Shown: positions 22,031 to 45,448 of the stretch, piece by piece
How the letters are laid out: each line of letters starts with the position of its first letter
How positions within the stretch are numbered: position 1 is the stretch's first letter
Assembly: GCA_965243115.1 (NCBI GenBank)
Contig: CBDEUD010000003.1
Span: 2,392,325-2,456,324 of the forward strand
Length of the DNA stretch: 64,000 nucleotides
Direction: 5' to 3'
DNA from: Gammaproteobacteria bacterium
GTDB lineage: Bacteria; Pseudomonadota; Gammaproteobacteria; Eutrophobiales; Eutrophobiaceae
Position numbers and translations under genes: made by a program
The notes under the pieces: generated by a model
Database searches by the model: none
Told to the model about the DNA's origin: nothing
The model's input: the letters and a program-made list of their open reading frames with translations, nothing else

Positions 22031-22053
22031 TCCCTTAACCAACCACTACGCCC

Positions 22054-25020: not shown

Positions 25021-25078
25021 GCAATACTCATTTTTTTTTCATGAAATCCTCATAAGTATAGTACATCAAGATATAAAA

Positions 25079-25135
25079 GATATATGAATATTTATTCATA
25101 ATTAATGTCGATATATATGAATATTTATTCATAAT
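25079..25135. promoter_or_regulatory. two direct copies of a 23-bp unit, each containing the palindrome ATGAATA-TT-TATTCAT, in the TonB receptor promoter region
   Basis: gatatatgaatatttattcataat at 25079-25102 and again at 25112-25135. Lies in the AT-rich region immediately upstream of the TonB receptor start codon. Confidence 0.55.
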
Positions 25136-25177
25136 GGATGTTGTTACTTAAATACAATATAGCCCGGACAAGAGGCT

Positions 25178-32894: not shown

Positions 32895-34820
32895 ATGCCG
32901 GATATAAGGTCTGTTTGCCGTGCAGTAATCGTGCTGCTTTGTCTTGCAGGATGCCAGAACAATGATTCCGGCCGCTCTGAAGTCAAATCCGCTGAAGCTG
33001 ATGAACAGGTTGCTGATGAGCCCGGGCAAACCGCGCAAGGATTTGTCGCAACCGTTAACAGGCAACTGGAAGAGTTGCACAAGGAAAATGCCGCTGCCGC
33101 CTGGGTGCGGGTGACGTATATCACACCTGACACGGCGTTGATTGCAGCCAAATCACAGGAACGTCTGCTGGAGTTTCACAGCAAGTCCGTTAAACAAAGC
33201 AGAAAATTTACCGGCAGACCCATGGGTGACGATACTGCCCGCGCAATCAGGCTGTTGGTTCAGGGCACATCCATGCCGGCGCCTGACGATGCTGCGAAAC
33301 GGGCCGAACTGGCGGAAATCGCAACCCGCATGGAGGGGCAATACGGTGAAGGGAAATACTGCCCGGAAGGGCCTGATACCTGCAAGGACCTGCCGGAACT
33401 GGAGCGTATATTGGGAGATAAAAAACACGATTTCGCAGCACAGTTGGACGCCTGGGTCGGTTGGCGCACCATTTCGCCGAAAATGCGCAAGGATTACCGG
33501 CGTTTTGTAGAACTGACCAATGAAGGCGCCCGCGAACTCGGTTTCTCCGATCTCGGTGAAATGTGGCGCTCCGGATACGACATGCCGGCAGCGGAGTTCG
33601 AGCAGGATACGGAGCGTCTCTGGAGCCAGGTCAAGCCTCTTTATAACGAGTTGCATTGTTATGTGCGCGACAAGCTTGCCGATTTTTATGGTGAAGACAA
33701 AGTGTCGCGTACTGGCCGTATCCCCGCGCACCTGCTTGGCAACATGTGGGCCCAGGAATGGGCGGGAATTTATGACATCGTGGAACCGTACCCGGGTGTT
33801 GCCGATGTTGATGTAACTCCGTCCCTGAAGCGGCAACAGGCAGAACTGGAAAGCAGGTTCCAGGATAAATTCGGGGACAGGGTTGAAGCGAAGCGCCAGG
33901 CCGAAGCTGAAATGGCCGTCAAGATGGTTAAAATGGCAGAGGATTTTTATACGTCACTGGGCATGCAGCCATTGCCTGAGAATTTCTGGGAACGGTCCAT
34001 GCTTCTGAAACCGCGGGATCGTCAGGTGGTATGCCACGCCAGCGCCTGGACCATGGACGGCAAGGAAGACGTGCGTATCAAACAATGTATTGAGGCTACA
34101 GGTGAACAGTTGTGGACGGTATTCCATGAACTCGGCCACGTTTACTATGACTTGCTGTATAAAAATCAACCGCTCCTGTTTCAGGGCGGCGCCCATGACG
34201 GTTTTCATGAGGCAGTAGGCGACACCGTCAACCTGTCCATGACCCCCGAGTACCTGTACAAGCTCGAGCTGATCAGACAGACCAGCCAGGCCTCGCAGGC
34301 GCTGATCAATCAACAGATGAACCTGGCGCTGGACAAGGTCGCCTTCCTGCCGTTTGCAATGATGATAGACCGGTGGCGTTGGGCGGTGTTCGACGGGCGT
34401 ATCAAACCGAGTGATTATAATACGGCCTGGTGGGAGCTGCGCCGGAAGTACCAGGGTATCGAATCACCGGTAGAACGCACCGAGGCAGATTTCGATCCGG
34501 GAGCAAAATACCATATACCCGGGAACACGCCGTACATACGTTATTTTCTCTCGTTTGTAATTCAGTTCCAGTTTCACAAGGCGCTATGCGCTATCGCCGG
34601 TTTCAACGGACCGTTGCATCAATGCTCTATTTACGGTAACAAAATTGCCGGTAAACGATTCATGGACATGCTGGAACTTGGCGCCAGCCGGCCCTGGCAG
34701 GACGCGTTCGAGACACTGGCCGGCACGCGCCGGATGGATGCCTCCGCAATTATCGAATACTTTCAGCCCCTGACAAGCTGGCTCGGGGAGCAAAACCGGG
34801 ATCGGCAGTGCGGCTGGTAA
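32895..34820 (+). CDS. peptidyl-dipeptidase A (angiotensin-converting-enzyme-like, peptidase family M2), secreted/lipoprotein
   Basis: FHELGHVYYDLLYKNQPLLFQGGAHDGFHEAVGDTVNLS aligns with ACE [39 protein letters not shown] (HEXXH...HEAxGD). N-terminal signal/lipobox LLCLAGC. Confidence 0.85.
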   Translation: MPDIRSVCRAVIVLLCLAGCQNNDSGRSEVKSAEADEQVADEPGQTAQGFVATVNRQLEELHKENAAAAWVRVTYITPDTALIAAKSQERLLEFHSKSVKQSRKFTGRPMGDDTARAIRLLVQGTSMPAPDDAAKRAELAEIATRMEGQYGEGKYCPEGPDTCKDLPELERILGDKKHDFAAQLDAWVGWRTISPKMRKDYRRFVELTNEGARELGFSDLGEMWRSGYDMPAAEFEQDTERLWSQVKPLYNELHCYVRDKLADFYGEDKVSRTGRIPAHLLGNMWAQEWAGIYDIVEPYPGVADVDVTPSLKRQQAELESRFQDKFGDRVEAKRQAEAEMAVKMVKMAEDFYTSLGMQPLPENFWERSMLLKPRDRQVVCHASAWTMDGKEDVRIKQCIEATGEQLWTVFHELGHVYYDLLYKNQPLLFQGGAHDGFHEAVGDTVNLSMTPEYLYKLELIRQTSQASQALINQQMNLALDKVAFLPFAMMIDRWRWAVFDGRIKPSDYNTAWWELRRKYQGIESPVERTEADFDPGAKYHIPGNTPYIRYFLSFVIQFQFHKALCAIAGFNGPLHQCSIYGNKIAGKRFMDMLELGASRPWQDAFETLAGTRRMDASAIIEYFQPLTSWLGEQNRDRQCGW

Positions 34821-34914: not shown

Positions 34915-34938
34915 GGGCGGAGTGACTGTCTCCAGTCA
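34915..34938. terminator. bidirectional stem-loop between convergent genes
   Basis: Perfect 10-bp inverted repeat GGAGTGACTG-tctc-CAGTCACTCC, flanked by an A-run upstream and gctttggtt downstream. Lies between the stops of the M2 peptidase (+) and the molybdoenzyme (-). Confidence 0.55.
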
Positions 34939-34966
34939 CTCCCACCCCGCTTTGGTTACTACTTGA

Positions 34967-37135
34967 CTAAGCTACTCGCTCGACCTGCACCAGGCTGTCG
35001 AACACCCTCGGGGCATGGCCCATATCGGCAAAGTCCGCGGACGATACGACGTTGGCGGTACCCTTGTTCAGCTGCCGCCAGTAGCCCAGGGATGAAACCA
35101 CCAGACCCGAACCGACGTCGTCTGTGACCTTGGCCACCACTTCGAACGCGCCGCGGTCGTTGAAGACCCGCACCTGGTCGCCTTCACTGATGCCCCGCGC
35201 CTCGGCGTCGGCTTCGCTGATCATGACGAACTGATCGCCCTGCCGTTTGATCTTGTTATCCATGTTGGCGTAACAGGAATTCAGGAAGCCGTGACTCTTC
35301 GGGGCGATAATATTCAGCGGGTATTTTTCCGCCAGGCCCGGGTTGCTCTGGGGCGATTCCTTTGACGGCACGTAATCAGGCAGGTTGTCCAGCGGCTCGC
35401 TGTTGCCGGGCTGCATCTCCTCGTACATCTGCCGGAACGGCGCGATGATGAAATTGCCGTTTGACGCGGATTCCGAGAAAAATTCGCACTTGCCGGACGG
35501 CGTGGGGAAATTGCCCTCCTTATGCGGCGCCCGCTCATGAGGTTCGCCAATCTTGACGCGTGCAAAACCGTTATCACGCAGGTAATCCACACTGAGGCCC
35601 TCACAGGCCGGCGAATCCCAGTCAACGAAATGCTCAAGGCACTCGGAATCGGACCACTTGAAGCGGTCTTCCTCAAAGCCCATGCGCTGCGCCAGACGGT
35701 TGAAGATCTCGTTATTGGACAAGACCTCGCCGGGTGGTTCGGAACACTTGGTGTTGTAGGTAAGATAGTTGTGCCCCCAGGACAGGATGATATCCTCCAT
35801 TTCCGCGCCCATGGCGGCAGGCAGGACGATATCCGCGTAGGCCGCGGTATCGGAGATGAAATGCTCGGCCGAGACCATGAACAGGTCTTCCCGCTCCAGT
35901 CCCTTGATGATCTTGTCGCCTTCCGGCGCCTGGGTTACCGGGTTGGAGTTCCAGCACATCAGGGACATGATCGGCGGGTCCAGGTCCATCTCGCCGGTCA
36001 GCGCCCGGCCGATCTGCAGGTTGTTGATGACCCGCGTACCTTCCGGAATAAGCTGGGGCTGCGAGATCACGTCCAGTTTGTAGGGATGTTCCCAGAACGT
36101 CATCTGGTAGATACCGCCGCCCACACCGCGCCAGGCGCCGGTCAGTGACGGCAGGCAACTGATGGCGCGTATCGCCTGGCCGCCGCCCCAGTTCCTCTCC
36201 ACGGCAACGCCGATACGGATGGCGGCCGGGTTGGTGGCAGCATACTCGCGGGCCAGGGTGCGAATATCATCGGCAGGGATACCGGTGATCTCTTCAGCCC
36301 ACTCCGGCGTGCGCGTGGCGGCCCGTTCCACCAGTTCCTTGAAACCGACGGTGTAGTTATCGACGTAATCCTGGTCAACCAGGTTCTCTTCAATGATGAC
36401 ATTCATCATGGCCATGGCCAGGGCGCCGTCGGTGCCGGGACGTATTGTAATGTGCCAGTCGGCCTGCCTCGCGGTGCGTGACCGGTAGGGATCAATCACC
36501 ACCAGTTTGGCTCCCCTGTCTCTGGCATCCTTGACAAAATGCCAGGCGTGCAGGTTGGTGCTGACGCTGTTGCAACCCCAGAGGATGATGTACTTGGAAT
36601 GGGCGAAGCTTTCCGGGTCAACGCCGCTGGTGGGGCCGTTGGTCAATACCCAGGCCGTTGCCGACCCTTCGCCGCAGAAGGTGCGTTCGCAAACCGTCGC
36701 GCCCAATCTGTTAAAGAAAGCATCGCCGCCGTTCAAACCATGTATCAGTCCCTGGTGTCCCAGGTAGCTGTAGGGAACGATGGCCTGGGGGCCATATTCG
36801 TCGATGATGTCTTTCCAGCGGCTGATCACTTCGTTGAGCGCATCATCCCAGGAGATGCGTTCGAATTGCTTGCTGCCCTTCGGGCCCGTCCGGCGCAGCG
36901 GATGGAGCACGCGATCGGGATGGTAATGGCGTTTCTCGTAATCATCGAGTTTTACGCACAAACCCCCGCGCGTCATGGGATGTTCCGGGTTGCCGTGAAC
37001 TCCGGTGAGTTTGCCGTCTTCGACTTCGAAGACCATGGAACAGGTATCGGGACAATCATGCGGGCAACCGCCGTAATAGGTTTCTTTCATTTGTGCAGCC
37101 ATGGAACACCCCCTTCTTGAATAATTTGCAGACAC
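34967..37135 (-). CDS. molybdopterin (bis-MGD) oxidoreductase family protein with N-terminal 4Fe-4S motif, cytoplasmic
   Basis: CPHDCPDTC...C cluster motif. 722 aa with the typical DMSO-reductase-superfamily domain order. No Tat signal. Confidence 0.8.
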   Translation of the reverse strand: MSANYSRRGCSMAAQMKETYYGGCPHDCPDTCSMVFEVEDGKLTGVHGNPEHPMTRGGLCVKLDDYEKRHYHPDRVLHPLRRTGPKGSKQFERISWDDALNEVISRWKDIIDEYGPQAIVPYSYLGHQGLIHGLNGGDAFFNRLGATVCERTFCGEGSATAWVLTNGPTSGVDPESFAHSKYIILWGCNSVSTNLHAWHFVKDARDRGAKLVVIDPYRSRTARQADWHITIRPGTDGALAMAMMNVIIEENLVDQDYVDNYTVGFKELVERAATRTPEWAEEITGIPADDIRTLAREYAATNPAAIRIGVAVERNWGGGQAIRAISCLPSLTGAWRGVGGGIYQMTFWEHPYKLDVISQPQLIPEGTRVINNLQIGRALTGEMDLDPPIMSLMCWNSNPVTQAPEGDKIIKGLEREDLFMVSAEHFISDTAAYADIVLPAAMGAEMEDIILSWGHNYLTYNTKCSEPPGEVLSNNEIFNRLAQRMGFEEDRFKWSDSECLEHFVDWDSPACEGLSVDYLRDNGFARVKIGEPHERAPHKEGNFPTPSGKCEFFSESASNGNFIIAPFRQMYEEMQPGNSEPLDNLPDYVPSKESPQSNPGLAEKYPLNIIAPKSHGFLNSCYANMDNKIKRQGDQFVMISEADAEARGISEGDQVRVFNDRGAFEVVAKVTDDVGSGLVVSSLGYWRQLNKGTANVVSSADFADMGHAPRVFDSLVQVERVA

Positions 37136-37269
37136 CCGGAATCGTCAAAAACCGGATATAGATTTGCAGTATAGTATAAATAACGGAAGTGCGCGGATAT
37201 TTCTCATTTGATTTTATGCGGTATTTGTGAATATTCTTAACAGTACTGAAACAGGAAACATCAGTTCCC

Positions 37270-37839
37270 ATGAAACGAATCATTATCGGCATGTCCGGGG
37301 CCAGCGGCCTGCCCTACGGGGTGCGCCTGGTGCAAGTGCTGGCCGATTTACCGGACATCGAAACCCACCTGGTCATGACCAATGCGGCCAAGTTGAACAT
37401 AGGTATTGAAACGGACCACAGTGTCGATGACGTAGAAGCTCTGGCAGACGTAGTACACAATATCCGGGACATCGCAGCCACCATTTCCAGCGGCTCATTC
37501 CGGACCGACGGCATGATCGTCGCTCCCTGCTCCATGCGAACGTTGTCGGCCATTACCAACTCCTATGCCGAAAACCTGCTGGTGCGGGCCGCCGACGTGG
37601 TCCTCAAGGAACGCCGGCGCCTGGTAATCATGCCGCGCGAGACCCCGCTGCACACGGGGCACTGCAAGTTATTCTACGAGGCGTCCGTTCTGGGGGCGAT
37701 CATCGCTCCGCCCATCCCGGCATTCTATAACCGCCCTGAGAGTATCGATGATATCGTCAACGCCAGTGTCGGCCGGGTGCTGGACCTGTTTGATATAGAA
37801 CCCGGAATCGTAAAGCGCTGGAAAGGCGTCAGAAACTGA
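37270..37839 (+). CDS. ubiX: UbiX/Pad1-family flavin prenyltransferase (VdcB/BsdB-like)
   Basis: MKRIIIGMSGASGLPYGVRLVQVL at the N-terminus is the UbiX FMN-binding signature. 189 aa. Confidence 0.9.
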   Translation: MKRIIIGMSGASGLPYGVRLVQVLADLPDIETHLVMTNAAKLNIGIETDHSVDDVEALADVVHNIRDIAATISSGSFRTDGMIVAPCSMRTLSAITNSYAENLLVRAADVVLKERRRLVIMPRETPLHTGHCKLFYEASVLGAIIAPPIPAFYNRPESIDDIVNASVGRVLDLFDIEPGIVKRWKGVRN

Positions 37840-37855
37840 GCCTGCTTCCGCTCAG
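37836..37855. terminator. small hairpin CTGAGC-N8-GCTCAG spanning the convergent stop codons of ubiX and the flavoprotein gene
   Basis: 6-bp inverted repeat. The only intergenic sequence between these convergent genes is 12 bp, so this is weak as a terminator. Confidence 0.3.
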
Positions 37856-39291
37856 GCAAACAGGCCGCCGGGATCCAGGGCCTGTTTAAGCCTGCCGCGC
37901 AGTTCGGCCATGCCGGCGTTATCGTAGCCGGCCAGCGCCCGATCCAGGTAGCCGGTGCTGATGTGGCTGACGCCATAGCCCCGCTGCGCCATCGTATCGA
38001 CAAGTGTCTCAAGGCATGCGGCTGCCCTGGGCTCGGCGTCACGCTGGTAGGTCAAATAGACACGCTGGATGACGGAGCGCCAGCCGACGGCAAATTCCGT
38101 CAGGTAGTCGAACCCGCTGCTGCGCACCGTGTCGCCGACCAGCTTGTTCATCTTCAGGACCTGCCGGCCGTCGATAGGACTGACAAAACCGGCATACAGG
38201 TGCGCCTGGCCCGACCAGTTGTTGAGATTGCTGAACTCCGCGGAGGGCCGGCCGCGCATCATGCTCTCCCTGGCGGCCAGCACCGGGTTGCCTGCCCGCG
38301 TCTTCAGGTCGAGCACCGCAGCGCCCTGGATACCTGAAAAGGCTCCTTTTACCATGGGCCATAATACATCGACGTTAGGAGGGGTGTTGTATAACGCGCC
38401 GTACAGGGTCCATAGCCCCAGGCCATGATCCGCCCTCAACCTGTCCAGGTCGACAGTATTTCCGCTGATGTAATCCTGCCGGGAACTGAACGGACTCGCA
38501 TCCAGCGCGGGATTACTGATAACTACCGTGTTCGGTATGATCACGTTGACCTTGAATGAACGCAGTATCTCCACCGCCTGGGCCAGGTCGCCGTTACTCT
38601 CCAGGGTAACGGCAAAAGGCTGGTAGGCAGGCGGCGCCGGCATCAGCCATACCCCCATTTTTGTCACCACACCCAGGCTGGACTGGGTAAACAGGCCGTC
38701 CAGGTAGGGACCGTAGGCGTATTTCGCCAGTTGCCAGGTATTGCTCTTCGGCATGGCGCCCATGCCCAGCCTTACCAGTTCGCCGCCGGCCAGCATGACC
38801 TCCATCCCGCACTGCATCATCGTGTGGTCCCCGTAGGCGGTATACCCGAACTCCCGGGCGGTGATGCTGCCGGCTACGGAATTCAGGCCGTTCCTGTCGC
38901 AATCCACCCACAGGCCGGTATTGTTTTCCTCCAGGTACGCATTCAACTGCGCGTAACTCACGCCCGGTTCCACCAGGGCATAGGCGGCTTTAGCGTTAAC
39001 CTCCACGATGTTGTTCATGCGGGACTGGTCGATGACCAGGATAGCCTTCTCCGTAGCGCCGCTGACCATGGCGCCGTTTGCGGCGCTGTTGGGTAATACC
39101 CACAGGGAGACCGCGCTTTCTGCGGCGGCCGCCAGCACTGACCTTAACTGTTCAATGTCTTCGGGAAGGACTACGCCGGCGGGCGTCTTGCCAAGCCGCG
39201 CGTACCCCCCCTTGGCGATAGCGTCGTTGCCGGACAAAACGGCATCACTGCCCAGTTGATCCCTCAGTTTATTAATCAGTTTTATTGACAT
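37852..39291 (-). CDS. FAD-linked oxidase, vanillyl-alcohol oxidase/p-cresol methylhydroxylase (VAO/PCMH) family, cytoplasmic paralog
   Basis: Clear paralog of the 41484-43154 ORF (EPGVSY..L..YL...LW.D....G.SV.G...E.G.GYT.YGDH). No signal peptide. 479 aa. Confidence 0.75.
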   Translation of the reverse strand: MSIKLINKLRDQLGSDAVLSGNDAIAKGGYARLGKTPAGVVLPEDIEQLRSVLAAAAESAVSLWVLPNSAANGAMVSGATEKAILVIDQSRMNNIVEVNAKAAYALVEPGVSYAQLNAYLEENNTGLWVDCDRNGLNSVAGSITAREFGYTAYGDHTMMQCGMEVMLAGGELVRLGMGAMPKSNTWQLAKYAYGPYLDGLFTQSSLGVVTKMGVWLMPAPPAYQPFAVTLESNGDLAQAVEILRSFKVNVIIPNTVVISNPALDASPFSSRQDYISGNTVDLDRLRADHGLGLWTLYGALYNTPPNVDVLWPMVKGAFSGIQGAAVLDLKTRAGNPVLAARESMMRGRPSAEFSNLNNWSGQAHLYAGFVSPIDGRQVLKMNKLVGDTVRSSGFDYLTEFAVGWRSVIQRVYLTYQRDAEPRAAACLETLVDTMAQRGYGVSHISTGYLDRALAGYDNAGMAELRGRLKQALDPGGLFA

Positions 39292-39362
39292 TATACATTA
39301 AAAATATATCTCAACATACTGTTTAAAAAAATTTAATTTTTTCATTTTCTATTCCCTAATCC

Positions 39363-39596
39363 CTATCCCCTATCCGCAGGCGGAATATTTTGCTTGTACT
39401 TCTCCGGATGGTCCGGATCGGCGCGGAACCACGCCTCCCGCTCGGCGTAATCAATCGATTCCGCGGGTTCGCTGTCGCGCCAGGTGAACGAACAGCGCCG
39501 GCAATAATATACGGTCCAGACCACTTCACCCCCTTCCCTGCCCTGGTATTCGGTGCGCAGGTGTTCCTGCGCTGATTGGCAACGGGGGCAGTTCAC
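39363..39596 (-). CDS. phenolic acid decarboxylase subunit D (BsdD/VdcD-like)
   Basis: MNCPRCQS...CRRCSFTWRDSEPAE zinc-ribbon motif. Immediately downstream of, and overlapping, the UbiD-family gene. Confidence 0.75.
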   Translation of the reverse strand: MNCPRCQSAQEHLRTEYQGREGGEVVWTVYYCRRCSFTWRDSEPAESIDYAEREAWFRADPDHPEKYKQNIPPADRG

Positions 39597-41077
39597 CGGT
39601 TTTCCGCCTCTTTCTGCAGCCGCATGATGTATTTGGCCAGGTCATCGATTTCGGCGCCTGCGGGAGGCGATACGATCTTGGCATCTCCGCCGATGGGATC
39701 GGGCGGCATGAAACTGGTGGCGTCGATGATCAGGCGGTGGCCCTTCCCCGGGATCTCCGCGGCCGGGTCGATGATCACCATGGGCATATTGGGAATGACG
39801 ATGATATCGCTGGCGCGGGTGCGCGTGGACAAGGCCCACATTACCTGGTTGAGGTCAAAGGGATCGACGTCGTCATCCACCATGATCAGGTTCTTCAGGT
39901 ACATCAGGCCGTGGGGCGTGCCCAGGGCCCGCATGGCCACCGATTTGGCAAATCCGGCGAACCGGTTCTTCACCGATATGATCCCGGTCAGGCCGTGCTG
40001 GTACAGGGCGTTCACCGCGACGACTTCGGGAAAGTTTTCCTTCAACTGGGCATAGATCGGGGCGCAGGTGCTGAGCCCGATCAGGGTATCGTGCTCGGTC
40101 CAGCCCTTGCCGATATAAATACTCTCGAAAATGGGGTCGGCACGGTGCGAAACGGCGGTCACGCGGAACAGGGGGACATGGCGAATACCGCTGTAGCTGC
40201 CCGGGAATTCGCCGAACGGCCCTTCCAGGCAGCGCCGGTTGTTCATAAGCTCAGCTTCAATCACCATTTCCGCGCCGGCAAGCACATCCAGGCCGTTGCC
40301 GGATTGGGTCAGTTCAATGGGGCTGCCCATCATCTGCGAGGCGTAGGCAAATTCCGATTCATCGTAATTTACCGGGGTGGCCGCGAACATGGCCATGGCG
40401 GGGTGGTTGCCGAGCATCACGGCGATCTTCAGCGGGACATCGTCCTGTTCCGCCATACGTATCTGCTGCGCCATATCGTGATTCGGGACAGACAACAAGG
40501 TGAACTGGTCCGGTCCCTGTACCTGGATGCGATAGATCCCCACGTTCTGCTTGGCAAAATTGTCCGGGTCGCGGGGGTCGCGGCTGACGATGTTGGCCTT
40601 GGCGATATAGAACCCGCCGTCCAGGGCATTGATGCGGTACAGCGGCAACAGGCCATACAGGTTGATATCCGTTTCGACCCTGTTTTCATGCACCGGCGCG
40701 TGTTCCTGTTTCACCCTGCTGATCAGCGGTTTGTCGGAACCCCAGCGCCCCGCCAGGTCGTAGAAAAGTTCCTTGATGCTGGTGCCTTTCGGCTTGCCCA
40801 GCAGCAGGGCTATATTGGAAAAACTGCCGTGTACTCCCACGACCAGTCTTTTGCCCGGGTAACCGCGGATCTTGTCGAATACGATCGCCGGGCCGGTCAT
40901 GGCGTCGCGCCCTGCCGCGACGACAACCTTGCGGATATCGGGTTCGGGCAGCACGGTTTCGGGCCAGGTAATGCACTGGCCGTACTCAGCCAGCAGTTCG
41001 AGATAGTCTCTTAAATTATGTATCCGCTCGGCTATGGCCCGGGCCTCGGGTGATAACGTGACGGTTTCCATGTCCAT
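39593..41077 (-). CDS. UbiD-family (prFMN-dependent) aromatic acid decarboxylase, VdcC/BsdC-like
   Basis: 494 aa. UbiD-family sequence character throughout. Flanked by the D subunit downstream and ubiX nearby. Confidence 0.85.
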   Translation of the reverse strand: MDMETVTLSPEARAIAERIHNLRDYLELLAEYGQCITWPETVLPEPDIRKVVVAAGRDAMTGPAIVFDKIRGYPGKRLVVGVHGSFSNIALLLGKPKGTSIKELFYDLAGRWGSDKPLISRVKQEHAPVHENRVETDINLYGLLPLYRINALDGGFYIAKANIVSRDPRDPDNFAKQNVGIYRIQVQGPDQFTLLSVPNHDMAQQIRMAEQDDVPLKIAVMLGNHPAMAMFAATPVNYDESEFAYASQMMGSPIELTQSGNGLDVLAGAEMVIEAELMNNRRCLEGPFGEFPGSYSGIRHVPLFRVTAVSHRADPIFESIYIGKGWTEHDTLIGLSTCAPIYAQLKENFPEVVAVNALYQHGLTGIISVKNRFAGFAKSVAMRALGTPHGLMYLKNLIMVDDDVDPFDLNQVMWALSTRTRASDIIVIPNMPMVIIDPAAEIPGKGHRLIIDATSFMPPDPIGGDAKIVSPPAGAEIDDLAKYIMRLQKEAENR

Positions 41078-41460
41078 CAGTGATCTCCTCCCGTGATATA
41101 GTCAGTCAGCAGGTCCAGTTGGGCGTCGTCGATTTCACTGTGGCGAAACGGCGGCATCAGTTTGAAGCCCTCCCGCACCACCAGTTTTACATAGTCCGGC
41201 TGCAGGTTATCCCTGTCAAGCAGCGGCGCCTGCTCTGCACTCATCCTCTCCTCCAGGCGCATGGTGCCCGGGTGGCCGGGCCCGGCACCGTGGCAGGCGA
41301 TGCAATACAAATCGAACAAGGCCTTGCCATCCAGATCGCTCATCTGCATGTCCGTATGTCCTTGTGCAGGTTCGCCTGTCCCCGCAGTTTCATCGTTACC
41401 ACACCCTGCCAGCAACAGCAGGACTGCCAGGAAGGTTGCGTATCGGTATCCGGTCATCAT
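41077..41460 (-). CDS. c-type cytochrome lipoprotein (PchC-like partner of the flavoprotein)
   Basis: Lipobox LLLLAGCGN. Heme-binding site CIACHG. 127 aa, directly downstream of the Tat-exported PCMH-family flavoprotein. Confidence 0.7.
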   Translation of the reverse strand: MMTGYRYATFLAVLLLLAGCGNDETAGTGEPAQGHTDMQMSDLDGKALFDLYCIACHGAGPGHPGTMRLEERMSAEQAPLLDRDNLQPDYVKLVVREGFKLMPPFRHSEIDDAQLDLLTDYITGGDH

Positions 41461-41483
41461 GAACGTTCAACGCATTGCGATTT

Positions 41484-43154
41484 TTAAGCCGGCCAGATAC
41501 CGCTCTTCCCCGGAGACAGGATCCCGGCCGGATCCAGCGCCTGCTTCAACCGGTGGTGCAGTTTCCACAATGCTCCGTCATTCCAGTTATAGGTGCCGGC
41601 AATCTCGTCCATGAAATTCAGGTGGGTGCGATACTCCCCGTAGCCCTGTTCGGCAAAATCGTTGACCAGGTGTCCGAAACATTCGTGGGCGCGGCGCCGC
41701 TCATCGTCATCCAGGCGATCGAAGATGAGCTGGAAGATGTTCAGGAGTTCCCGCCAACCCACCAGGAATTCACCGATATAGTCGAAGCCGTATTCGTTCG
41801 CCCGGTCCCTTATCAGGGTGAACTGTTTCATGGAATCCTCGCCGGTTACCGGTGAACGGGGTGAGAAATCGATATGCGCGCCGCTGCCTACCCAGTTCAT
41901 CAGGCTGAACTCGGTCATGTTCGGCACGCCTTGCATCAGCTTGACCCGGTAGCGCCAGGCCGGATCGCCGGGCCGGTCGCCCTCGAAGAAGAACTTTGCG
42001 CCGGGAATACTGCGGAACGCCTCTTCCAGGACTTTCCAGTTGTTGTCCATGATCGGTTCCGGCCCGTACAGCGCGCCGTAGAAATTCCACATGCCGATAT
42101 TCAGGTCGTCCGCCATCTTCTGGCGATGGCGCATCGGCATGGGGCCTTTGCCGCTGTAATACTGTTTCCTGGTTGCGTTGGGGGCCGCTTCCCAGATCAG
42201 GCCCACCGTGGTTGCAGCATTGGGGATCAGCATGTTGAGCCGCAACGGGCCCACGATCTCGGTAATCTGGTAAAGATCCTCCTCACGGGGGAAAGTCACC
42301 AGGTAAGGACGGTAACCCGGGGGTTCCGGCATCAACCAGATTCCCACCTTGGTGATGATGCCGAAATTCGACTGGGTGAACATGCCTTCAACCCATGGCC
42401 CGCAGCCGTACTTGTACAGGCTGGACGTGGTTGAACCTGACAGGGCGCCCATGCCGGTATCGACGACGGTGCCGTCTGCCAGCACCACCTGCATGCCGCA
42501 ATTCATCAGCAGGTGGTCGCCGTAGGGCGTGTAGCCGGCGCCGTGTTCCGACAGGTTGCCGAGGACGCTGCCCCAGCCGGGGGCTGCCGGGTCGATCCAC
42601 AGTTTGCTGCCGCGTTGTTGCAGGTAATTGTACAATTCAAAGTAGCTGACTCCCGGTTCGACCACTGCGTAACCGTGTTCCTCATTGACCTCGATGATGC
42701 GTTTCATCCGGTTCAGATCGAGAACAAAAAAACCGGGCTTCCTGGGCGCCGGACCGCCGTAGGCATAATTCTTGCCGGTGGAAACGGTCCACAGGGGGAT
42801 TTGGTAACTGCGGGCAATTTTCAGGATGGCCTGGATCTCTTCAACGGTCCTGGGCGCCACCGCAGCGGACGGCATGTTCGCCTCATCGGGCAAAGTGGAA
42901 TAGACGTCCCGGTAAGTCCTCAAATCCCCTTCGTCGTCAGTGAAAACCCACTTGTCACCGATGGCATGGCGCAATTCCGCAACGGCCCGGTTGAACTCGG
43001 CAGGCGTCAGAGACTCCGGCAGGGGTTTTTCAAATCCCTCTTCCGTCTCCGCCGCAGCGGTGTCCACAGCCAGGGGCACACCGGCAGCCAGGAATGACGA
43101 TTTCAGGAATTTCCGTCTCGTTACCATAAAACAGCCCTGACAGGAATACTGCAA
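41484..43154 (-). CDS. Tat-exported VAO/PCMH-family flavoprotein subunit (p-cresol methylhydroxylase / 4-alkylphenol hydroxylase PchF-like)
   Basis: Twin-arginine signal TRRKFLKSSFLAAGVPLAVDTAAAE. FAD-binding PCMH-type domain. 556 aa. Confidence 0.75.
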   Translation of the reverse strand: MQYSCQGCFMVTRRKFLKSSFLAAGVPLAVDTAAAETEEGFEKPLPESLTPAEFNRAVAELRHAIGDKWVFTDDEGDLRTYRDVYSTLPDEANMPSAAVAPRTVEEIQAILKIARSYQIPLWTVSTGKNYAYGGPAPRKPGFFVLDLNRMKRIIEVNEEHGYAVVEPGVSYFELYNYLQQRGSKLWIDPAAPGWGSVLGNLSEHGAGYTPYGDHLLMNCGMQVVLADGTVVDTGMGALSGSTTSSLYKYGCGPWVEGMFTQSNFGIITKVGIWLMPEPPGYRPYLVTFPREEDLYQITEIVGPLRLNMLIPNAATTVGLIWEAAPNATRKQYYSGKGPMPMRHRQKMADDLNIGMWNFYGALYGPEPIMDNNWKVLEEAFRSIPGAKFFFEGDRPGDPAWRYRVKLMQGVPNMTEFSLMNWVGSGAHIDFSPRSPVTGEDSMKQFTLIRDRANEYGFDYIGEFLVGWRELLNIFQLIFDRLDDDERRRAHECFGHLVNDFAEQGYGEYRTHLNFMDEIAGTYNWNDGALWKLHHRLKQALDPAGILSPGKSGIWPA

Positions 43155-43186
43155 AATTGATTTAACATGAAATTACGCTAAATTCA

Positions 43187-43274
43187 GGACAACCATAAAT
43201 TTAAAACATTTCTTAATTTATGGTTGTCCCAAATTAGGTTTAGTCTCAATTTATGGTTGTCCCAAATTAGGTTT
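43187..43274. promoter_or_regulatory. compound repeat: a 15-bp perfect inverted repeat plus two direct 27-bp repeats, candidate operator
   Basis: GGACAACCATAAATT (43187-43201) and its reverse complement AATTTATGGTTGTCC (43215-43229). The 27-mer aatttatggttgtcccaaattaggttt occurs at 43215-43241 and again at 43248-43274 (33-bp period). Confidence 0.6.
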
Positions 43275-43284
43275 CTGTGGTTAA

Positions 43285-44028
43285 TTAATCCAGGTTGAGT
43301 TTCAGGTGTGAGCCGTCACACCAGGGTTTGGTCTTGGAGTATTTGCAGCCGCACAGGGCCACGTGCTGGAACTCGTCCAGTTGGAATTGCATGGGTACGC
43401 GCCTCGTTTCCTTGTGGGAACCGTCACAGAACGGCTGGTTTTTGGAGCGGCCGCAGGCGCACCAGTAATACTCGCCCTTGTCCAGGTTCATGAGGTAGGG
43501 TGAATTCCGGCTGCCGTCCAGGAATTTGGACTTTACCCAACCCTCCTCGTACGGGCTCACCATGTTCAGCTTCAGTTCCATGGACTGGAACAGCCAGCGC
43601 CCGTCCTGTTTTACACACCGGCAGTCGTACGTGCCGCCGATCCAGTGGGATTCCGCCTCGTCGGTATGCGGGTTGGGCACGGTTGCCGATTCCCACAGGT
43701 ACCAGAAAACCGTGGCGCTGAGGCCGTCGGGAGCGATATCAATCAACGGTGAAATCATGTAATGCAATGACCACCAGATCTTCTCGCCGGCGATCCCGTG
43801 CAGGCCTTTTGCGAGTCTGTCCCGGCCATGATATTTGCCGAAGCCCTTGCATTCCCAGGTGCCGTCTTCGGCAAAACACGGACCGATGACTTCGGGATCA
43901 TTGCCGCGGTCACAACCCCTGGCGTACGTAACGATCAGGCGCTGTATCGCCTCCACGTCCTCGAGGTGGGTCAACTTGGCATCCAGTCTTTCCAGCAGTC
44001 CCTTTATTTCAGCAAGTTCTTCGCTCAT
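43285..44028 (-). CDS. NTF2/SnoaL-like domain fused to tandem CDGSH-type [2Fe-2S] domains
   Basis: N-terminal ~160 aa has NTF2-like fold character. C-terminus carries two CDGSH motifs, CACGRSKNQPFCDGSH and CGCKYSKTKPWCDGSH. Confidence 0.7.
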   Translation of the reverse strand: MSEELAEIKGLLERLDAKLTHLEDVEAIQRLIVTYARGCDRGNDPEVIGPCFAEDGTWECKGFGKYHGRDRLAKGLHGIAGEKIWWSLHYMISPLIDIAPDGLSATVFWYLWESATVPNPHTDEAESHWIGGTYDCRCVKQDGRWLFQSMELKLNMVSPYEEGWVKSKFLDGSRNSPYLMNLDKGEYYWCACGRSKNQPFCDGSHKETRRVPMQFQLDEFQHVALCGCKYSKTKPWCDGSHLKLNLD

Positions 44029-44054
44029 AGCAATTCCCTGGCCCCTGCCCCCTG

Positions 44055-45299
44055 TCAGGCTACCCGCCTGGATTTCTGTTTGCGTCCTTCAAGCTCTGCT
44101 GCGTAAGCCTTGTAACGGGTTATCAGCCAGCGGTTGAATTGCGGCAGGGTTGCCTCTTTCGGGGCATAACGGCCCCGGGGTGCAAACCGTGAGCGCAGCC
44201 CTTTGTGAACGGCGGTGTTGGCGCCGGTATCCTGGTCGTTCAGGGTTTCCAGGCCGATGACCACGGATTTGAAAATAATATCGAAATTATCCATGCGCAG
44301 GGTGGATTTGGGATAGATGAAACCGACACGGATGGTCATGGCGTTGGCCCCCTGGGGCAGGATGCAATAATAGAAACAACCGTCCGGCACACAGCCGAAG
44401 AACAGGTTGGGCAGGATACAGGCAAACATCACCCGCTTGCGTTCGTTCTCGGTCAGCCCTTCGATGACCGGGAACAGGCAATGGAATGCAGCGGTGAAAT
44501 TACCGTCCAGTTCCAGGAAACCGGTAGGATGATAGACGGCGCCGTCATCGAAATCGTCCCATTCGGCAAACGTGGCCAGCTTGGAAGGGGCAAAATCGTG
44601 GGGACCCTTGTGCAGGTACCAGGTGTGATGAGGTTCAATGGCGTTTTCGTGCATGAACTTCCAGTTCCACGGACTTGGCCCCCAGTCTACCGTCGGCACG
44701 CCGCCCATCTCTGCCAGGTTATGGTTTTCAACTTCTTTTGTGAGTCGTTTCAGACGCGGGGCCAGGGGTTTCGCCTTGCCGTCCATGTTGATGAAGATGA
44801 AGCCGTTCCACAGTTCGGTACGTAACGTGGGCAGGCAATATTTTTTTTGTAATTCACCCAGGCTGGCGTGTGCATCCATTTCCGGGGCGCTGACCAGCTT
44901 GCCCGTTTCATCGTAGGACCAGCCGTGGAAGGGACAGGTAAAGACACGGGTATTGCCTGTTTCCTCGCCCAGCACGTGTCCGCGGTGCTGGCATACGGCG
45001 GACATGACACGCACACCACCGTCGTCCTTGCGTTGCACCAGCAGCGGGTCTTCATTGATCGAGACGGAGACGTAATCGCCCGGACGGGGTATGGTGCCGA
45101 TGTGTCCCACACAGATCCACTCCCGGTCCCAGACAGCCCGCTTTTCAAATTCAAACCATTCTTCGGAGGTATACACTTCCGGCGGCATGGAGACGCAGTC
45201 CTTCAATTCAACATTGGACTCGTCAAGCCGTCCGAGGATTTCATACAGGTGTTCAGTCAACCTGACATCAGGTAAGGTGTGCGTGACATAATCGGCCAT
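44055..45299 (-). CDS. Rieske non-heme iron oxygenase alpha subunit
   Basis: Rieske motif CQHRGHV...CPFHGWSY. 414 aa. Only 26 bp upstream of the NTF2-CDGSH gene on the same strand. Confidence 0.8.
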   Translation of the reverse strand: MADYVTHTLPDVRLTEHLYEILGRLDESNVELKDCVSMPPEVYTSEEWFEFEKRAVWDREWICVGHIGTIPRPGDYVSVSINEDPLLVQRKDDGGVRVMSAVCQHRGHVLGEETGNTRVFTCPFHGWSYDETGKLVSAPEMDAHASLGELQKKYCLPTLRTELWNGFIFINMDGKAKPLAPRLKRLTKEVENHNLAEMGGVPTVDWGPSPWNWKFMHENAIEPHHTWYLHKGPHDFAPSKLATFAEWDDFDDGAVYHPTGFLELDGNFTAAFHCLFPVIEGLTENERKRVMFACILPNLFFGCVPDGCFYYCILPQGANAMTIRVGFIYPKSTLRMDNFDIIFKSVVIGLETLNDQDTGANTAVHKGLRSRFAPRGRYAPKEATLPQFNRWLITRYKAYAAELEGRKQKSRRVA

Positions 45300-45448
45300 G
45301 ATAACTCCCCCTGGTAAATACGGGATTATGTGAAATAAATTATGCGGTTAGTTCCGCTTTGGCAGGTAATAATATACATTAAATCGTTCAATATTGAAAA
45401 AAACCGGCGTGCGGTTAATTCCTTACCATCAGCGAGCAGGAGAATATC

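What the first reader, a model, noticed from the sequence alone, without database searches (positions are those of the whole stretch)
34967..45299. Composite phenolic/aromatic catabolic island
Within ~10 kb, with components on both strands, the island encodes a reversible non-oxidative phenolic-acid decarboxylase system: UbiX on the plus strand, and the UbiD-family enzyme with its D subunit on the minus strand. It also encodes a Tat-exported PCMH-type flavoprotein with a lipoprotein cytochrome c (a flavocytochrome like p-cresol, 4-ethylphenol or eugenol hydroxylases) and a second, cytoplasmic VAO-family paralog. A cytoplasmic 4Fe-4S molybdoenzyme and a Rieske oxygenase with an unusual partner complete the set. 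The combination suggests conversion of para-alkyl or para-hydroxybenzyl phenols (lignin- or algal-derived) through 4-hydroxybenzoate or vanillate-type acids. No transcriptional regulator and no ring-cleavage dioxygenase are present in the window, so the pathway endpoints lie elsewhere.
Basis: partly seen in the sequence, partly recalled or inferred. Interest (0 to 1): 0.55.

Follow-up and report, generated by a model that had tools for sequence, protein, structure and literature searches.

The report
Conserved phenol side-chain trimming operon
This is a real, widely conserved bacterial gene cluster that most likely oxidises and then clips the side chain off para-hydroxybenzyl phenols; here it is joined to an undescribed Rieske oxygenase whose partner fuses a lyase-like domain to two iron-sulfur domains, and the neighbouring molybdenum enzyme is probably only a neighbour.

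Summary
The region is three units, not one island.

1. A widespread operon, found here as flavoprotein, cytochrome c, VdcC, VdcD and a divergent VAO paralog, with UbiX convergent at the 3' end. The flavoprotein is not PCMH-like. It is 54% identical to the vanillyl-alcohol dehydrogenase (VAD) of Marinicaulis flavus. In metagenomes the same operon usually reads ubiX-VAD-cytc-ALDH-vdcC-vdcD-paralog. That order supports a route from alcohol to aldehyde to acid to decarboxylated phenol.

2. A strict gene pair: a Rieske alpha subunit plus an LdpA-like NTF2 domain fused to two intact CDGSH [2Fe-2S] motifs. The pair is adjacent in 44 of 51 genomes across several phyla and is uncharacterised. Among VAD-Vdc operons, this pair and the aldehyde dehydrogenase are mutually exclusive.

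3. The molybdoenzyme belongs to a large, highly conserved cytoplasmic family that sits in unrelated contexts elsewhere. It is absent from two of the closest relatives, so it is probably a passenger.

The substrate, the role of the Rieske pair and the role of the divergent paralog remain inferred. The closest genomes appear to be sponge-associated Gammaproteobacteria MAGs.

The parts
44055..45299 (-). Rieske non-heme-iron oxygenase alpha subunit (414 aa)
43285..44028 (-). Partner protein: N-terminal LdpA-like NTF2 (SnoaL_4) domain fused to two CDGSH (NEET-type 3Cys-1His [2Fe-2S]) motifs
41484..43127 (-). Tat-exported VAD-clade 4-phenol dehydrogenase flavoprotein (547 aa from the ATG at 43127)
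   Evidence: FAD_binding_4 and FAD-oxidase_C. MVTRRKFLK twin-arginine motif. 659 bits and 54% identity to M. flavus VAD 8S7P. The GKNYAYGG, AAPGWGS (Pro151), GAHIDFSP (flavinylation His) and YGEYRTH motifs are kept.
41077..41460 (-). Lipoprotein mono-haem cytochrome c, presumed electron acceptor of the flavoprotein
   Evidence: Cytochrome_CBB3 and Cytochrom_C. Lipobox LLLAGC and CIACH. A homologous cytochrome c gene starts less than 700 nt after the VAD gene in 58 of 68 metagenome loci.
39593..41077 (-). VdcC, the prFMN-dependent hydroxyarylic acid decarboxylase catalytic subunit
   Evidence: NF041204 VdcC scores 656.9 against a cut-off of 650. Best PDB match is 7ae4, phenolic acid decarboxylase, 448 bits. 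The start overlaps the cytochrome c stop by 1 nt.
39363..39596 (-). VdcD, small zinc-ribbon-like subunit (CxxC...CxxC)
   Evidence: NF041205 VdcD scores 59.8 against a cut-off of 30. It overlaps vdcC by 4 nt. The ortholog in L001 carries Pfam EcdD_BsdD_detox.
37852..39291 (-). Divergent, signal-less VAO/PCMH paralog (36% identical to the flavoprotein); role unknown
   Evidence: FAD_binding_4 only. It lacks the equivalents of Tyr108, Tyr503/Arg504 and Pro151. The flavinylation His is not conserved among its orthologs. A paralog of this kind follows vdcD in 18 of 27 well-flanked VAD operons.
37270..37839 (+). UbiX flavin prenyltransferase (prFMN supply for VdcC), convergent, with its stop 12 nt from the paralog's stop
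   Evidence: NF004685 scores 263 against a cut-off of 188. The VdcB-specific model NF041206 scores 244, below its cut-off of 290. In other lineages ubiX is the first gene of the operon, in 13 of 27 loci.
34967..37102 (-). Cytoplasmic [4Fe-4S] Mo/W-bisPGD enzyme (711 aa from M12). Adjacent, probably not part of the pathway.
   Evidence: Pfam domains. All NCBIfam equivalogs are far below cut-off, for example NasC at 175 against 1100. Best PDB matches are acetylene hydratase and FdhF at about 187 bits. The family has more than 7,900 members and is 74-76% identical in Methylophaga and Methylococcales. Its contexts elsewhere are unrelated. It is absent in L010 and L024.
34919..34942 (-). Terminator-like hairpin (10-bp stem plus T-run) just after the molybdoenzyme stop
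   Evidence: The total number of terminator-like sites in the region is not above the shuffle expectation.
45371..45400 (-). Sigma-70-like promoter match upstream of the Rieske gene
   Evidence: 9 of 12 matches. Weak, and not above chance for the region.

Best explanation
The seven minus-strand genes from 45299 down to 37852, together with ubiX, form a catabolic or detoxifying module for para-hydroxybenzyl-type phenols.

Proposed steps:
1. In the periplasm, the Tat-exported, histidyl-FAD, VAD-type flavoprotein oxidises a 4-hydroxybenzyl alcohol, ether or allyl compound through a p-quinone methide to the aldehyde. It passes the electrons to the membrane-anchored lipoprotein cytochrome c and on to the respiratory chain.
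2. The aldehyde is oxidised to the 4-hydroxy-aromatic acid. The enzyme for this step is not encoded here. Most related operons carry a dedicated aldehyde dehydrogenase.
3. VdcCD, loaded with prFMN made by UbiX, removes the carboxyl group and gives phenol, guaiacol or an analogue.
4. The Rieske alpha subunit with its NTF2-CDGSH partner then oxygenates that phenol. My proposal is that the alpha subunit makes a cis-dihydrodiol or keto tautomer. The LdpA/LinA/scytalone-dehydratase-like NTF2 domain (His-Asp dyad plus two oxyanion-hole tyrosines) then catalyses the aromatising elimination to a catechol-type product. The two CDGSH [2Fe-2S] clusters relay electrons to the Rieske centre.
5. Ring cleavage is encoded elsewhere in this genome.

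The molybdoenzyme is an unrelated neighbour.

Status of the evidence:
- Shown by sequence and comparative data: family membership, export signals, gene coupling and conserved co-location.
- Inferred: the substrates, the order of steps, the role of the Rieske pair and the electron-carrier role of the CDGSH domains.
For: Flavoprotein:
- It is the closest relative of the characterised VAD (659 bits, 54% identity). [quoted passage not shown]
- A cytochrome c gene follows VAD genes in 58 of 68 loci.

Operon:
- ubiX-VAD-cytc-(ALDH)-vdcC-vdcD-paralog recurs in metagenomes. Of 27 well-flanked loci, 26 have the cytochrome c, 19 vdcC, 18 vdcD, 18 the paralog and 13 ubiX.
- The gene in the gap is an aldehyde dehydrogenase, with Pfam Aldedh at 511 bits, and it is present in 20 vdcC-positive loci.

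Rieske pair:
- The pair is adjacent in 44 of 51 genomes.
- Where it occurs without VAD and Vdc, it sits next to an intradiol dioxygenase (L079) or near a LigB-type dioxygenase (L004).
- In Binatia it sits between vdcCD and the VAD genes, with HpaB and an extradiol dioxygenase nearby.
- The catalytic residues of NTF2 lyases and dehydratases are invariant.
- No cis-diol dehydrogenase and no canonical reductase appear in six annotated loci.
- In NTF2-only relatives, a Rieske ferredoxin gene directly follows the NTF2 gene, which is the position the CDGSH domains occupy here.
Against: - There is no biochemical data for any protein in this window.
- No aldehyde dehydrogenase is encoded in the window or in any operon that carries the pair. 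Step 2 is therefore a gap here, and the pair could instead fill that step.
- The alphaproteobacterial and actinobacterial members of the fusion family keep a separate Rieske ferredoxin next to the alpha gene. The CDGSH domains are thus not simply a ferredoxin replacement.
- The alpha subunit's best structural matches include alpha3-only N-demethylase-type enzymes such as CntA and 3n0q, so the substrate need not be a plain phenol.
- The Tat signal on the flavoprotein is confined to this clade.
- The divergent paralog has no assigned role.
- The loci that carry the pair represent only about three lineages, so the co-occurrence counts are not independent.
Confidence: 0.5

Rival explanations
1. 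The Rieske alpha subunit and its NTF2-CDGSH partner replace the missing aldehyde dehydrogenase. They oxidise or otherwise process the aromatic aldehyde made by the flavocytochrome, for example by C-H hydroxylation of the formyl group to the acid, and so feed VdcCD rather than acting after it.
For: The distribution among vdcC-containing operons is strictly complementary. In the VAD-seeded set, 20 loci have the ALDH without the pair, 3 have the pair without the ALDH, and none have both. All 25 loci from the NTF2-seeded set that carry the pair lack the ALDH, as does the window. LdpA, the nearest characterised relative of the NTF2 domain, acts on p-hydroxyphenyl compounds through quinone-methide chemistry.
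Against: The pair also occurs without VAD or Vdc in most Alphaproteobacteria and other genomes, next to ring-cleavage dioxygenases. I know of no Rieske oxygenase that works as an aldehyde oxidase (my own knowledge). The loci with the pair represent only about three lineages. Generic aldehyde dehydrogenases encoded elsewhere could fill the gap.
Confidence: 0.2
2. One reading: one integrated 10-kb island in which the molybdoenzyme is a pathway enzyme, for example a hydroxylase or transhydroxylase acting on the phenolic product.
For: In this clade the molybdoenzyme and ubiX come and go together. The molybdoenzyme is present in 7 of 9 loci with ubiX, and L011 is cut off at the locus end. One unrelated 3.7-kb contig (L124) has a 69% homolog directly upstream of a VAD gene.
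Against: - It is absent from L010 and L024, which are about 90% identical and lose homology exactly at the paralog's stop codon.
- It is found in 0 of 27 well-flanked VAD operons.
- It is absent from the Binatia loci.
- Homologs at 75% and 82% identity lie among ammonium-transporter and PLP-enzyme genes, or among ModA-like, ABC-transporter and GGT genes.
- The family has more than 7,900 members and is 74-76% identical across orders, which suggests a housekeeping role.
Confidence: 0.12
3. The module serves detoxification rather than growth. It converts toxic phenolic alcohols, aldehydes and acids, possibly host-derived and possibly halogenated in a sponge, to less harmful products without mineralising them.
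For: No ring-cleavage genes are found in the 64-kb window. The VdcD ortholog falls in the Pfam family EcdD_BsdD_detox. The closest genomes carry MAG names that also appear in papers on sponge symbionts. A reductive-dehalogenase homolog flanked by Rieske oxygenases lies at 2495-6944 in the same window.
Against: Coupling to a cytochrome c suggests energy conservation. Related loci carry HpaB-type hydroxylases and, in Binatia, an extradiol dioxygenase and a hydrolase. The module is also found in soil and freshwater lineages.
Confidence: 0.15

Closest known systems
Vanillyl-alcohol dehydrogenase (VAD) of Marinicaulis flavus (PDB 8S7N-8S7W; Guerriere et al., ACS Catal 2025, PMC7617285)
   Same: 54% identity and 659 bits over the full length. 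The window protein keeps the flavinylation His, the Tyr/Tyr-Arg phenolate triad and the N5 proline that suppresses O2 reactivity.
   Different: The window protein has a Tat signal, which is absent from the crystallised construct and from many orthologs. It has Ala-Pro rather than Asp-Pro at the N5 pair. Its gene is followed by a cognate lipoprotein cytochrome c. The paper reports no activity with bovine cytochrome c and leaves the natural acceptor open.
p-Cresol methylhydroxylase (PchCF) and eugenol hydroxylase flavocytochromes c
   Same: A periplasmic 4-phenol-oxidising flavoprotein with a c-type cytochrome encoded by an adjacent gene, and the same quinone-methide chemistry.
   Different: The score is lower (461 bits). 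By the paper's description, PCMH uses a tyrosyl-FAD link, whereas the VAO/VAD histidine is present here. VAD is reported as inactive on p-cresol. The pch operon of Pseudomonas carries an aldehyde dehydrogenase and feeds protocatechuate, with no decarboxylase (my own knowledge).
VdcBCD / BsdBCD / EcdBCD non-oxidative hydroxyarylic acid decarboxylases
   Same: The C and D subunits pass the curated NCBIfam cut-offs and UbiX passes its family cut-off. vdcC and vdcD are translationally coupled.
   Different: There is no BCD gene order. ubiX is convergent at the far end of the cluster and misses the VdcB-specific cut-off. The genes are embedded in a flavocytochrome operon, an arrangement I did not find described in the searched literature.
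LdpA diarylpropane lyase (NTF2-like; PDB 8ABT-8ABW; PMC9942872), with LinA and scytalone dehydratase
   Different: The Glu of LdpA motif II is Ile here. LdpA's C-terminal arm is replaced by two CDGSH domains. The gene is obligately paired with a Rieske alpha gene, and LdpA has no such partner.
Classical multicomponent Rieske dioxygenases (NDO, BPDO, TPADO: alpha3beta3 plus ferredoxin plus reductase)
   Same: The alpha subunit has an intact Rieske centre and a 2-His-1-carboxylate site. An NTF2-fold protein is encoded directly after the alpha gene, where beta subunits are normally encoded.
Bacterial two-CDGSH (MiNT/CISD3-like) NEET proteins
   Same: Two complete C-x-C-x2-(S/T)-x3-P-x-C-D-G-(S/A/T)-H motifs. 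Best PDB matches are 3tbn and 6avj.
   Different: The domains are fused to an enzyme-like NTF2 domain and genomically tied to an oxygenase. A survey of CDGSH domain architectures lists Rieske_2, Fer4_19 and Glu_synthase partners but no SnoaL or NTF2 partner.

Membership tests
Non-oxidative hydroxyarylic acid decarboxylase (VdcBCD type) | UbiD-family C subunit matching the curated VdcC model | tested here: met
   NF041204 scores 656.9 against a cut-off of 650; UbiD_N, UbiD and UbiD_C domains are present.
Non-oxidative hydroxyarylic acid decarboxylase (VdcBCD type) | Small D subunit encoded next to C | tested here: met
   NF041205 scores 59.8 against a cut-off of 30; 4-nt overlap with vdcC.
Non-oxidative hydroxyarylic acid decarboxylase (VdcBCD type) | B subunit (UbiX-type prenyltransferase) specific to Vdc and in a B-C-D operon | tested here: not met
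   The UbiX family model is met (263 against 188). The VdcB model scores 244, below its cut-off of 290. The gene is convergent at the other end of the cluster.
Non-oxidative hydroxyarylic acid decarboxylase (VdcBCD type) | Decarboxylation of 4-hydroxybenzoate or vanillate | not testable with these tools
   Needs an enzyme assay.
VAO/PCMH 4-phenol oxidoreductases, VAD clade | FAD_binding_4 and FAD-oxidase_C domains with the Tyr/Tyr-Arg phenolate-binding triad | tested here: met
   the GKNYAYGG and YGEYRTH motifs align to VAD.
VAO/PCMH 4-phenol oxidoreductases, VAD clade | Histidine at the flavinylation site together with proline at the N5 site | tested here: met
   GAHIDFSP and AAPGWGS align to VAD GGHVGFSP and DP151GWGS. 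The criteria are taken from PMC7617285.
VAO/PCMH 4-phenol oxidoreductases, VAD clade | Flavin-interacting aspartate next to the N5 residue | tested here: not met
   Ala precedes the Pro here, where VAD has Asp150. That this is the position meant in the paper is my inference.
p-Cresol methylhydroxylase proper | Closest similarity to PchF, with tyrosyl-FAD linkage and p-cresol activity | tested here: inconclusive
   PCMH scores 461 bits against 659 for VAD. The VAO-type His is present. The Tyr384-equivalent position was not examined, and activity cannot be tested.
Flavocytochrome c (flavoprotein plus cognate cytochrome c) | Exported c-type cytochrome encoded adjacent to the flavoprotein, with both proteins periplasmic | tested here: met
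   23-nt gap between the genes; lipobox and CIACH; Tat motif on the flavoprotein. The adjacency holds in 58 of 68 loci. Physical complex formation was not tested.
Rieske non-heme iron oxygenase, alpha subunit | CxH...CxxH Rieske motif and (D/E)x2Hx4H...D mononuclear-iron site | tested here: met
Rieske oxygenase beta subunit | NTF2-fold protein encoded after alpha and most similar to known beta subunits | tested here: inconclusive
LdpA diarylpropane lyase | Motif I His-Asp dyad plus tyrosine oxyanion hole | tested here: met
   D40, H89, Y35 and Y134 align with NaLdpA D40, H97, Y35 and Y147 and are invariant in 76 sequences.
LdpA diarylpropane lyase | Motif II Glu-Tyr-Gln triad (Glu143 essential) | tested here: not met
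   Glu143 aligns with Ile130. The protein is therefore not filed as an LdpA.
CDGSH / NEET [2Fe-2S] proteins | 3Cys-1His CDGSH motif | tested here: met
   Two motifs (C190/C192/C201/H205 and C226/C228/C237/H241) are conserved across the family. Pfam zf-CDGSH scores 73 bits. Cluster binding was not tested.
Assimilatory nitrate reductase (NasA/NasC) or DmsA/YnfE, for the molybdoenzyme | Reaches the curated equivalog or subfamily score | tested here: not met
   NasC scores 175 against 1100, NasA 121 against 1000 and dmsA_ynfE 311 against 778. Only membership of the Mo/W-bisPGD superfamily is established.

The most novel reading that the evidence does not exclude
Two linked novelties remain open.

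(a) The Rieske alpha subunit and the NTF2-CDGSH protein form a new kind of Rieske oxygenase system. In it, a catalytically competent LdpA/LinA-like lyase or dehydratase domain takes the place of the beta subunit and carries its own NEET-type [2Fe-2S] relay. This would give a bifunctional oxygenase-eliminase and the first enzymatic electron-transfer role for bacterial CDGSH domains.

(b) The ubiX-VAD-cytc-(ALDH or Rieske pair)-vdcCD-paralog operon defines an undescribed respiratory 'side-chain excision' route. It would run from p-hydroxybenzyl compounds to simple phenols, and it would identify the missing natural electron acceptor of the VAD clade.
Probability: 0.3. Interest if true: 0.75.

Novelty: new variant of a known kind. 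Interest (0 to 1): 0.57.

Why it matters
- It gives a genomic context and a candidate natural electron acceptor (an adjacent, usually exported cytochrome c) to the recently described VAD clade of 4-phenol dehydrogenases. The physiological partner and role of that clade were left open.
- It points to a widespread operon that links benzylic oxidation directly to prFMN-dependent decarboxylation. This route removes the whole side chain of lignin-type or host-type phenols and is relevant to lignin valorisation and to guaiacol and phenol formation in nature.
- It flags an uncharacterised family of about 250 members. In it, a lyase-like NTF2 domain fused to two NEET clusters is locked to a Rieske oxygenase. 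This could extend the known architectures and electron-transfer partners of Rieske enzymes and give bacterial CDGSH proteins a concrete function.
- It shows that the molybdoenzyme should not be used to infer the pathway.

Tried and rejected
- An exact look-up of the window's NTF2-CDGSH protein found nothing on record.
- The AFDB50 fold library was unavailable.
- Rfam and tRNA scans found nothing. Promoter and terminator scans were not above the shuffle expectation. GC content is uniform. There is therefore no sign of a mobile island.
- Literature searches for CDGSH together with Rieske, SnoaL, NTF2 or ring-hydroxylating found no description of the fusion. A search for flavocytochrome together with UbiD operons found nothing relevant. 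The OxD clade could not be resolved.
- A plasmid tblastn found only NTF2-only or CDGSH-only matches and no full fusion.
- Molybdoenzyme as a pathway member: rejected.
- NTF2 domain as an ordinary beta subunit: not supported by sequence or fold ranking.
- Divergent VAO paralog as a substitute for the aldehyde dehydrogenase: rejected as a simple swap, because the paralog and the ALDH co-occur in the same operons.
- CDGSH domains as a plain replacement of the Rieske ferredoxin: weakened, because alphaproteobacterial and actinobacterial members keep both.
- P0355, a 306-aa Rieske-CDGSH chimera on a 2-kb contig, was not used as fusion evidence. It looks like a deletion or an assembly artefact.
- PCMH identity for the flavoprotein was replaced by VAD-clade identity.

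Full report
**Observation.** Reading the minus strand from 45299 downwards, the genes are:
- a Rieske alpha subunit (44055-45299);
- a 247-aa protein with a SnoaL_4 domain and two CDGSH motifs (43285-44028);
- a flavoprotein with FAD_binding_4 and FAD-oxidase_C domains (41484-43154), whose plausible start at 43127 gives MVTRRKFLK, a consensus Tat motif;
- a 127-aa cytochrome c (41077-41460) with the lipobox LLLAGC and one CIACH site;
- VdcC (39593-41077; NF041204 scores 656.9 against a cut-off of 650);
- VdcD (39363-39596; NF041205 scores 59.8 against 30);
- a signal-less VAO-family paralog (37852-39291).

The cytochrome c and vdcC genes overlap by 1 nt, and vdcC and vdcD by 4 nt. UbiX (37270-37839, plus strand; NF004685 scores 263 against 188) is convergent, with its stop 12 nt from the paralog's stop. 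A cytoplasmic [4Fe-4S] molybdopterin enzyme (34967-37135, minus strand) is divergent from ubiX.

The flanks are an ACE-like M2 peptidase and a POT transporter on one side. On the other side lie a CitMHS transporter, SCO1, phosphatidylserine decarboxylase and the nuo operon. GC content is uniform and there are no tRNA genes.

**The flavocytochrome.** The flavoprotein's best solved relative is not PCMH (461 bits). It is an 'Oxidoreductase', PDB 8S7P and its series (659 bits). The literature identifies this as the vanillyl-alcohol dehydrogenase (VAD) of Marinicaulis flavus (PMC7617285). According to that paper, VAD:
- barely reacts with O2 because of a proline at the flavin N5;
- carries histidyl-FAD;
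- has an unknown natural acceptor, and bovine cytochrome c does not work.

The window protein is 54% identical to VAD. It keeps Pro151 (AAPGWGS), the histidine (GAHIDFSP) and the phenolate triad (GKNYAYGG, YGEYRTH). The residue before the proline is Ala rather than Asp, which reads as an even more dehydrogenase-like signature; this is my inference from the paper's description.

**Comparative genomics seeded on the NTF2-CDGSH protein.** The fusion forms a family of about 258 proteins. A scan of one genome per species returned 70 loci. I compared the window's proteins against them with tblastn.
- 53 loci hold the full fusion.
- In 44 of the 51 with enough upstream sequence, the orthologous Rieske alpha gene (45% identity or more) ends less than 400 nt upstream on the same strand. 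Most exceptions have another Rieske gene there.
- This holds in Gammaproteobacteria, Binatia, Alphaproteobacteria (Novosphingobium), an actinobacterium and a planctomycete bin.
- The flavoprotein, cytochrome c, vdcC, vdcD and paralog genes accompany the pair in the window's own clade, in a second gammaproteobacterial group (L022-L026) and, in a different order, in Binatia.
- The molybdoenzyme and ubiX are present in only some close relatives.

At the DNA level, L009 (about 90% identity) is collinear from 31348 to 53826 except for the M2 peptidase. L010 and L024 are equally close but lose homology exactly at the paralog's stop (37852). They continue with DUF1028, RidA, HpaB and M20 genes, as L001 and L008 do. 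Several carry bin names (APA_bin, SB0675_bin) that also occur in papers on sponge symbionts, so a sponge-associated source is likely but not proven.

**Comparative genomics seeded on the flavoprotein.** A metagenome scan with a VAD alignment gave 80 loci at 49-85% identity.
- A homologous cytochrome c gene starts within 700 nt after the VAD gene in 58 of 68 loci.
- Of the 27 loci with long flanks, 26 have the cytochrome c, 19 vdcC, 18 vdcD, 18 a second VAO-like paralog and 13 ubiX (on the same strand, as the first gene).
- Only 3 have the NTF2-CDGSH protein and its Rieske partner, and none has the molybdoenzyme.

The core unit is therefore ubiX-VAD-cytc-vdcC-vdcD-paralog. The Rieske pair is an addition in a few lineages.

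In many of these operons a gene of about 480 aa sits between the cytochrome c gene and vdcC, or after the paralog. It is an aldehyde dehydrogenase (Pfam Aldedh, 511 bits), with orthologs in 20 vdcC-positive loci. It strongly supports a linear route from alcohol to aldehyde to acid to decarboxylated phenol.

**A complementary distribution.** Among vdcC-containing loci, the aldehyde dehydrogenase and the Rieske/NTF2-CDGSH pair never co-occur.
- In the VAD-seeded set, 20 loci have the ALDH only, 3 have the pair only and 3 have neither. Two of those 3 are truncated contigs.
- All 25 pair-carrying loci from the NTF2-seeded set, and the window itself, lack the ALDH.

The loci with the pair represent only about three lineages, so this is suggestive rather than conclusive. 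It does raise the rival possibility that the pair handles the aldehyde.

**The unusual partner.** Both CDGSH motifs are complete and conserved. The AF2 model is confident (pLDDT 94.6).
- phmmer finds LdpA at E 5.5e-11 and finds no beta subunit.
- In that alignment, Tyr35, Asp40, His89 and Tyr134 match NaLdpA Tyr35, Asp40, His97 and Tyr147. These are the acid-base dyad and oxyanion hole shown by mutagenesis to be essential (PMC9942872). All four are invariant in 76 family members and in CDGSH-less homologs.
- LdpA's Glu143 is Ile here, so the protein is not an LdpA.

The domain therefore looks like a working eliminase of the LinA, scytalone dehydratase or LdpA type rather than a purely structural beta subunit.

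In CDGSH-less relatives the gene order is alpha, a small 123-aa protein, NTF2, then a Rieske ferredoxin. The ferredoxin gene directly follows the NTF2 gene, which is where the CDGSH domains sit in the fusion. However, alphaproteobacterial and actinobacterial members of the fusion family also keep a Rieske ferredoxin upstream of the alpha gene. The CDGSH domains are thus not a simple substitute.

No canonical reductase and no cis-diol dehydrogenase were seen in six annotated loci. Elsewhere the pair lies next to an intradiol dioxygenase or near a LigB-type dioxygenase.

The alpha subunit has intact metal sites and a confident model. It is about equally close to alpha3-only enzymes (3n0q, CntA) and to alpha3beta3 enzymes (NagG, NDO). 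It reaches no curated equivalog, and its roughly 510 homologs carry only generic names. No paper in the searched library links CDGSH with SnoaL, NTF2 or Rieske oxygenases.

**The second VAO paralog.** It is 36% identical to the flavoprotein. It has Asn for the Tyr108-equivalent, Ser-His for Tyr-Arg and Asn for Pro151. Its orthologs in all three lineages show the same losses, and the flavinylation histidine is not conserved. It is a conserved member of the operon with no assignable chemistry. It co-occurs with the aldehyde dehydrogenase, so it is not simply that enzyme's replacement.

**The molybdoenzyme.** It has the Fe4S4, Molybdopterin and Molydop_binding domains and no signal peptide.
- It scores far below every curated equivalog, including NasC, NasA and DmsA.
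- Its best solved relatives are acetylene hydratase and FdhF, at about 187 bits.
- It belongs to a family with more than 7,900 hits, 707-711 aa long and 74-76% identical in Methylophaga and Methylococcales.
- A Methylophaga homolog and an 82% homolog from another symbiont-type genome lie in unrelated neighbourhoods.

Together with its absence from L010, L024, Binatia and all well-flanked VAD operons, this makes it a probable passenger. Two facts keep a small doubt alive: its linkage with ubiX inside the clade, and one short contig (L124) with a homolog next to a VAD gene.

**Mechanism proposed.**
1. Periplasmic benzylic oxidation by the Tat-exported VAD-type flavoprotein, with electrons passing to the lipoprotein cytochrome c.
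2. Oxidation of the aldehyde to the acid. This is done by a dedicated ALDH in most lineages and is unassigned here.
3. Decarboxylation by VdcCD, with prFMN supplied by UbiX.
4. Oxygenation of the resulting phenol by the Rieske alpha subunit, with the NTF2 dyad catalysing an aromatising elimination and the CDGSH clusters relaying electrons.
5. Ring cleavage elsewhere in the genome.

Family membership, export signals and the conserved linkage of these genes rest on sequence and comparative evidence. The chemistry of steps 1 and 3 is inferred from characterised homologs, and steps 2, 4 and 5 are inference.

**Novelty and verdict.** All the enzyme families are known. What is new is:
- the conserved operon that ties a VAD-type flavocytochrome to VdcBCD;
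- the candidate natural acceptor for the VAD clade;
- the Rieske/NTF2-CDGSH pair.

I rate this a new variant of a known kind, with interest 0.57.

Noticed in passing
window 27-6944 (+): A separate cluster: TonB-dependent receptor (27-2363), VanA-type Rieske oxygenase (2495-3664), a protein with no family (3818-4450), a 339-aa reductive-dehalogenase homolog (4595-5614) and another Rieske alpha subunit (5763-6944). The dehalogenase homolog scores 109 bits on TIGR02486 against a cut-off of 160, and matches PceA at 87 bits and NpRdhA 4RAS at 71 bits. This may be an aerobic catabolic dehalogenase system for halophenolics, which would be notable given the likely sponge-symbiont source.
   Followed up: partly
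window 7428-14200 (-): Sarcosine oxidase alpha-like (GCV_T, SO_alpha_A3) and beta-like (DAO) genes, followed by saccharopine dehydrogenase and AlaDh/PNT-like genes. These point to methylated-amine and amino-acid catabolism.
   Followed up: no
window 18635-27163 (-): Two TPR-sulfotransferase fusion proteins (18635-20080 and 25178-27163) and a TPR plus 2OG-Fe(II) oxygenase protein (20110-21990) surround a TonB-dependent receptor (22054-25020). This is a eukaryote-like-repeat-rich region of unknown role.
   Followed up: no
window 32895-34820 (+): An angiotensin-converting-enzyme-like M2 peptidase (Peptidase_M2, 725 bits). The gene is missing from the otherwise collinear closest relative L009, so it is a recent insertion or deletion.
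   Followed up: partly
window 41484-43154; loci L022, L023, L026, L006, L033, L036: The Tat signal on the VAD-type flavoprotein is confined to the window's own clade. Orthologs at 55-76% identity in other lineages have no room for a signal peptide, while their cytochrome c partners still have one. How those flavoproteins meet their cytochrome is unexplained.
   Followed up: partly
L124 1-3712: A 3.7-kb metagenome contig has a 69% homolog of the window's molybdoenzyme directly upstream, on the same strand, of a 56% VAD gene followed by a cytochrome c gene. This is the only such adjacency outside the window's clade.
   Followed up: no
P0355 (306 aa, 2-kb Logan contig): An ORF joins the first ~230 residues of an orthologous Rieske alpha subunit directly to the twin CDGSH region, skipping the alpha C-terminus and the NTF2 domain. 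It may be a deletion variant or an assembly artefact.
   Followed up: partly
L006/L037 10795-12918 (Binataceae): The Binatia version of the cluster carries a second, distant UbiD paralog (26% identical to VdcC) and a 201-aa protein with no Pfam family between the NTF2-CDGSH gene and the VAD gene. HpaB, an extradiol dioxygenase and a hydrolase lie upstream.
   Followed up: partly
L083 525-2914 and 6983-9122; L062-L076: CDGSH-less relatives form a recurrent four-gene Rieske system: alpha, a conserved ~120-aa protein of unknown function, NTF2 and a Rieske ferredoxin. The small protein has no counterpart in the window.
   Followed up: partly
window 17314-18621 (+) and 3818-4450 (+): Long ORFs of 435 aa and 210 aa have no Pfam or NCBIfam match.
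   Followed up: no
L001, L008, L010, L024 about 16000-20000: The DUF1028-RidA-HpaB-M20 block that replaces ubiX and the molybdoenzyme is 98-99% identical in protein between L001, L008 and L010. The adjacent phenolic cluster is only about 82-90% identical at the DNA level to the window. This suggests recent exchange of this flank.
   Followed up: no
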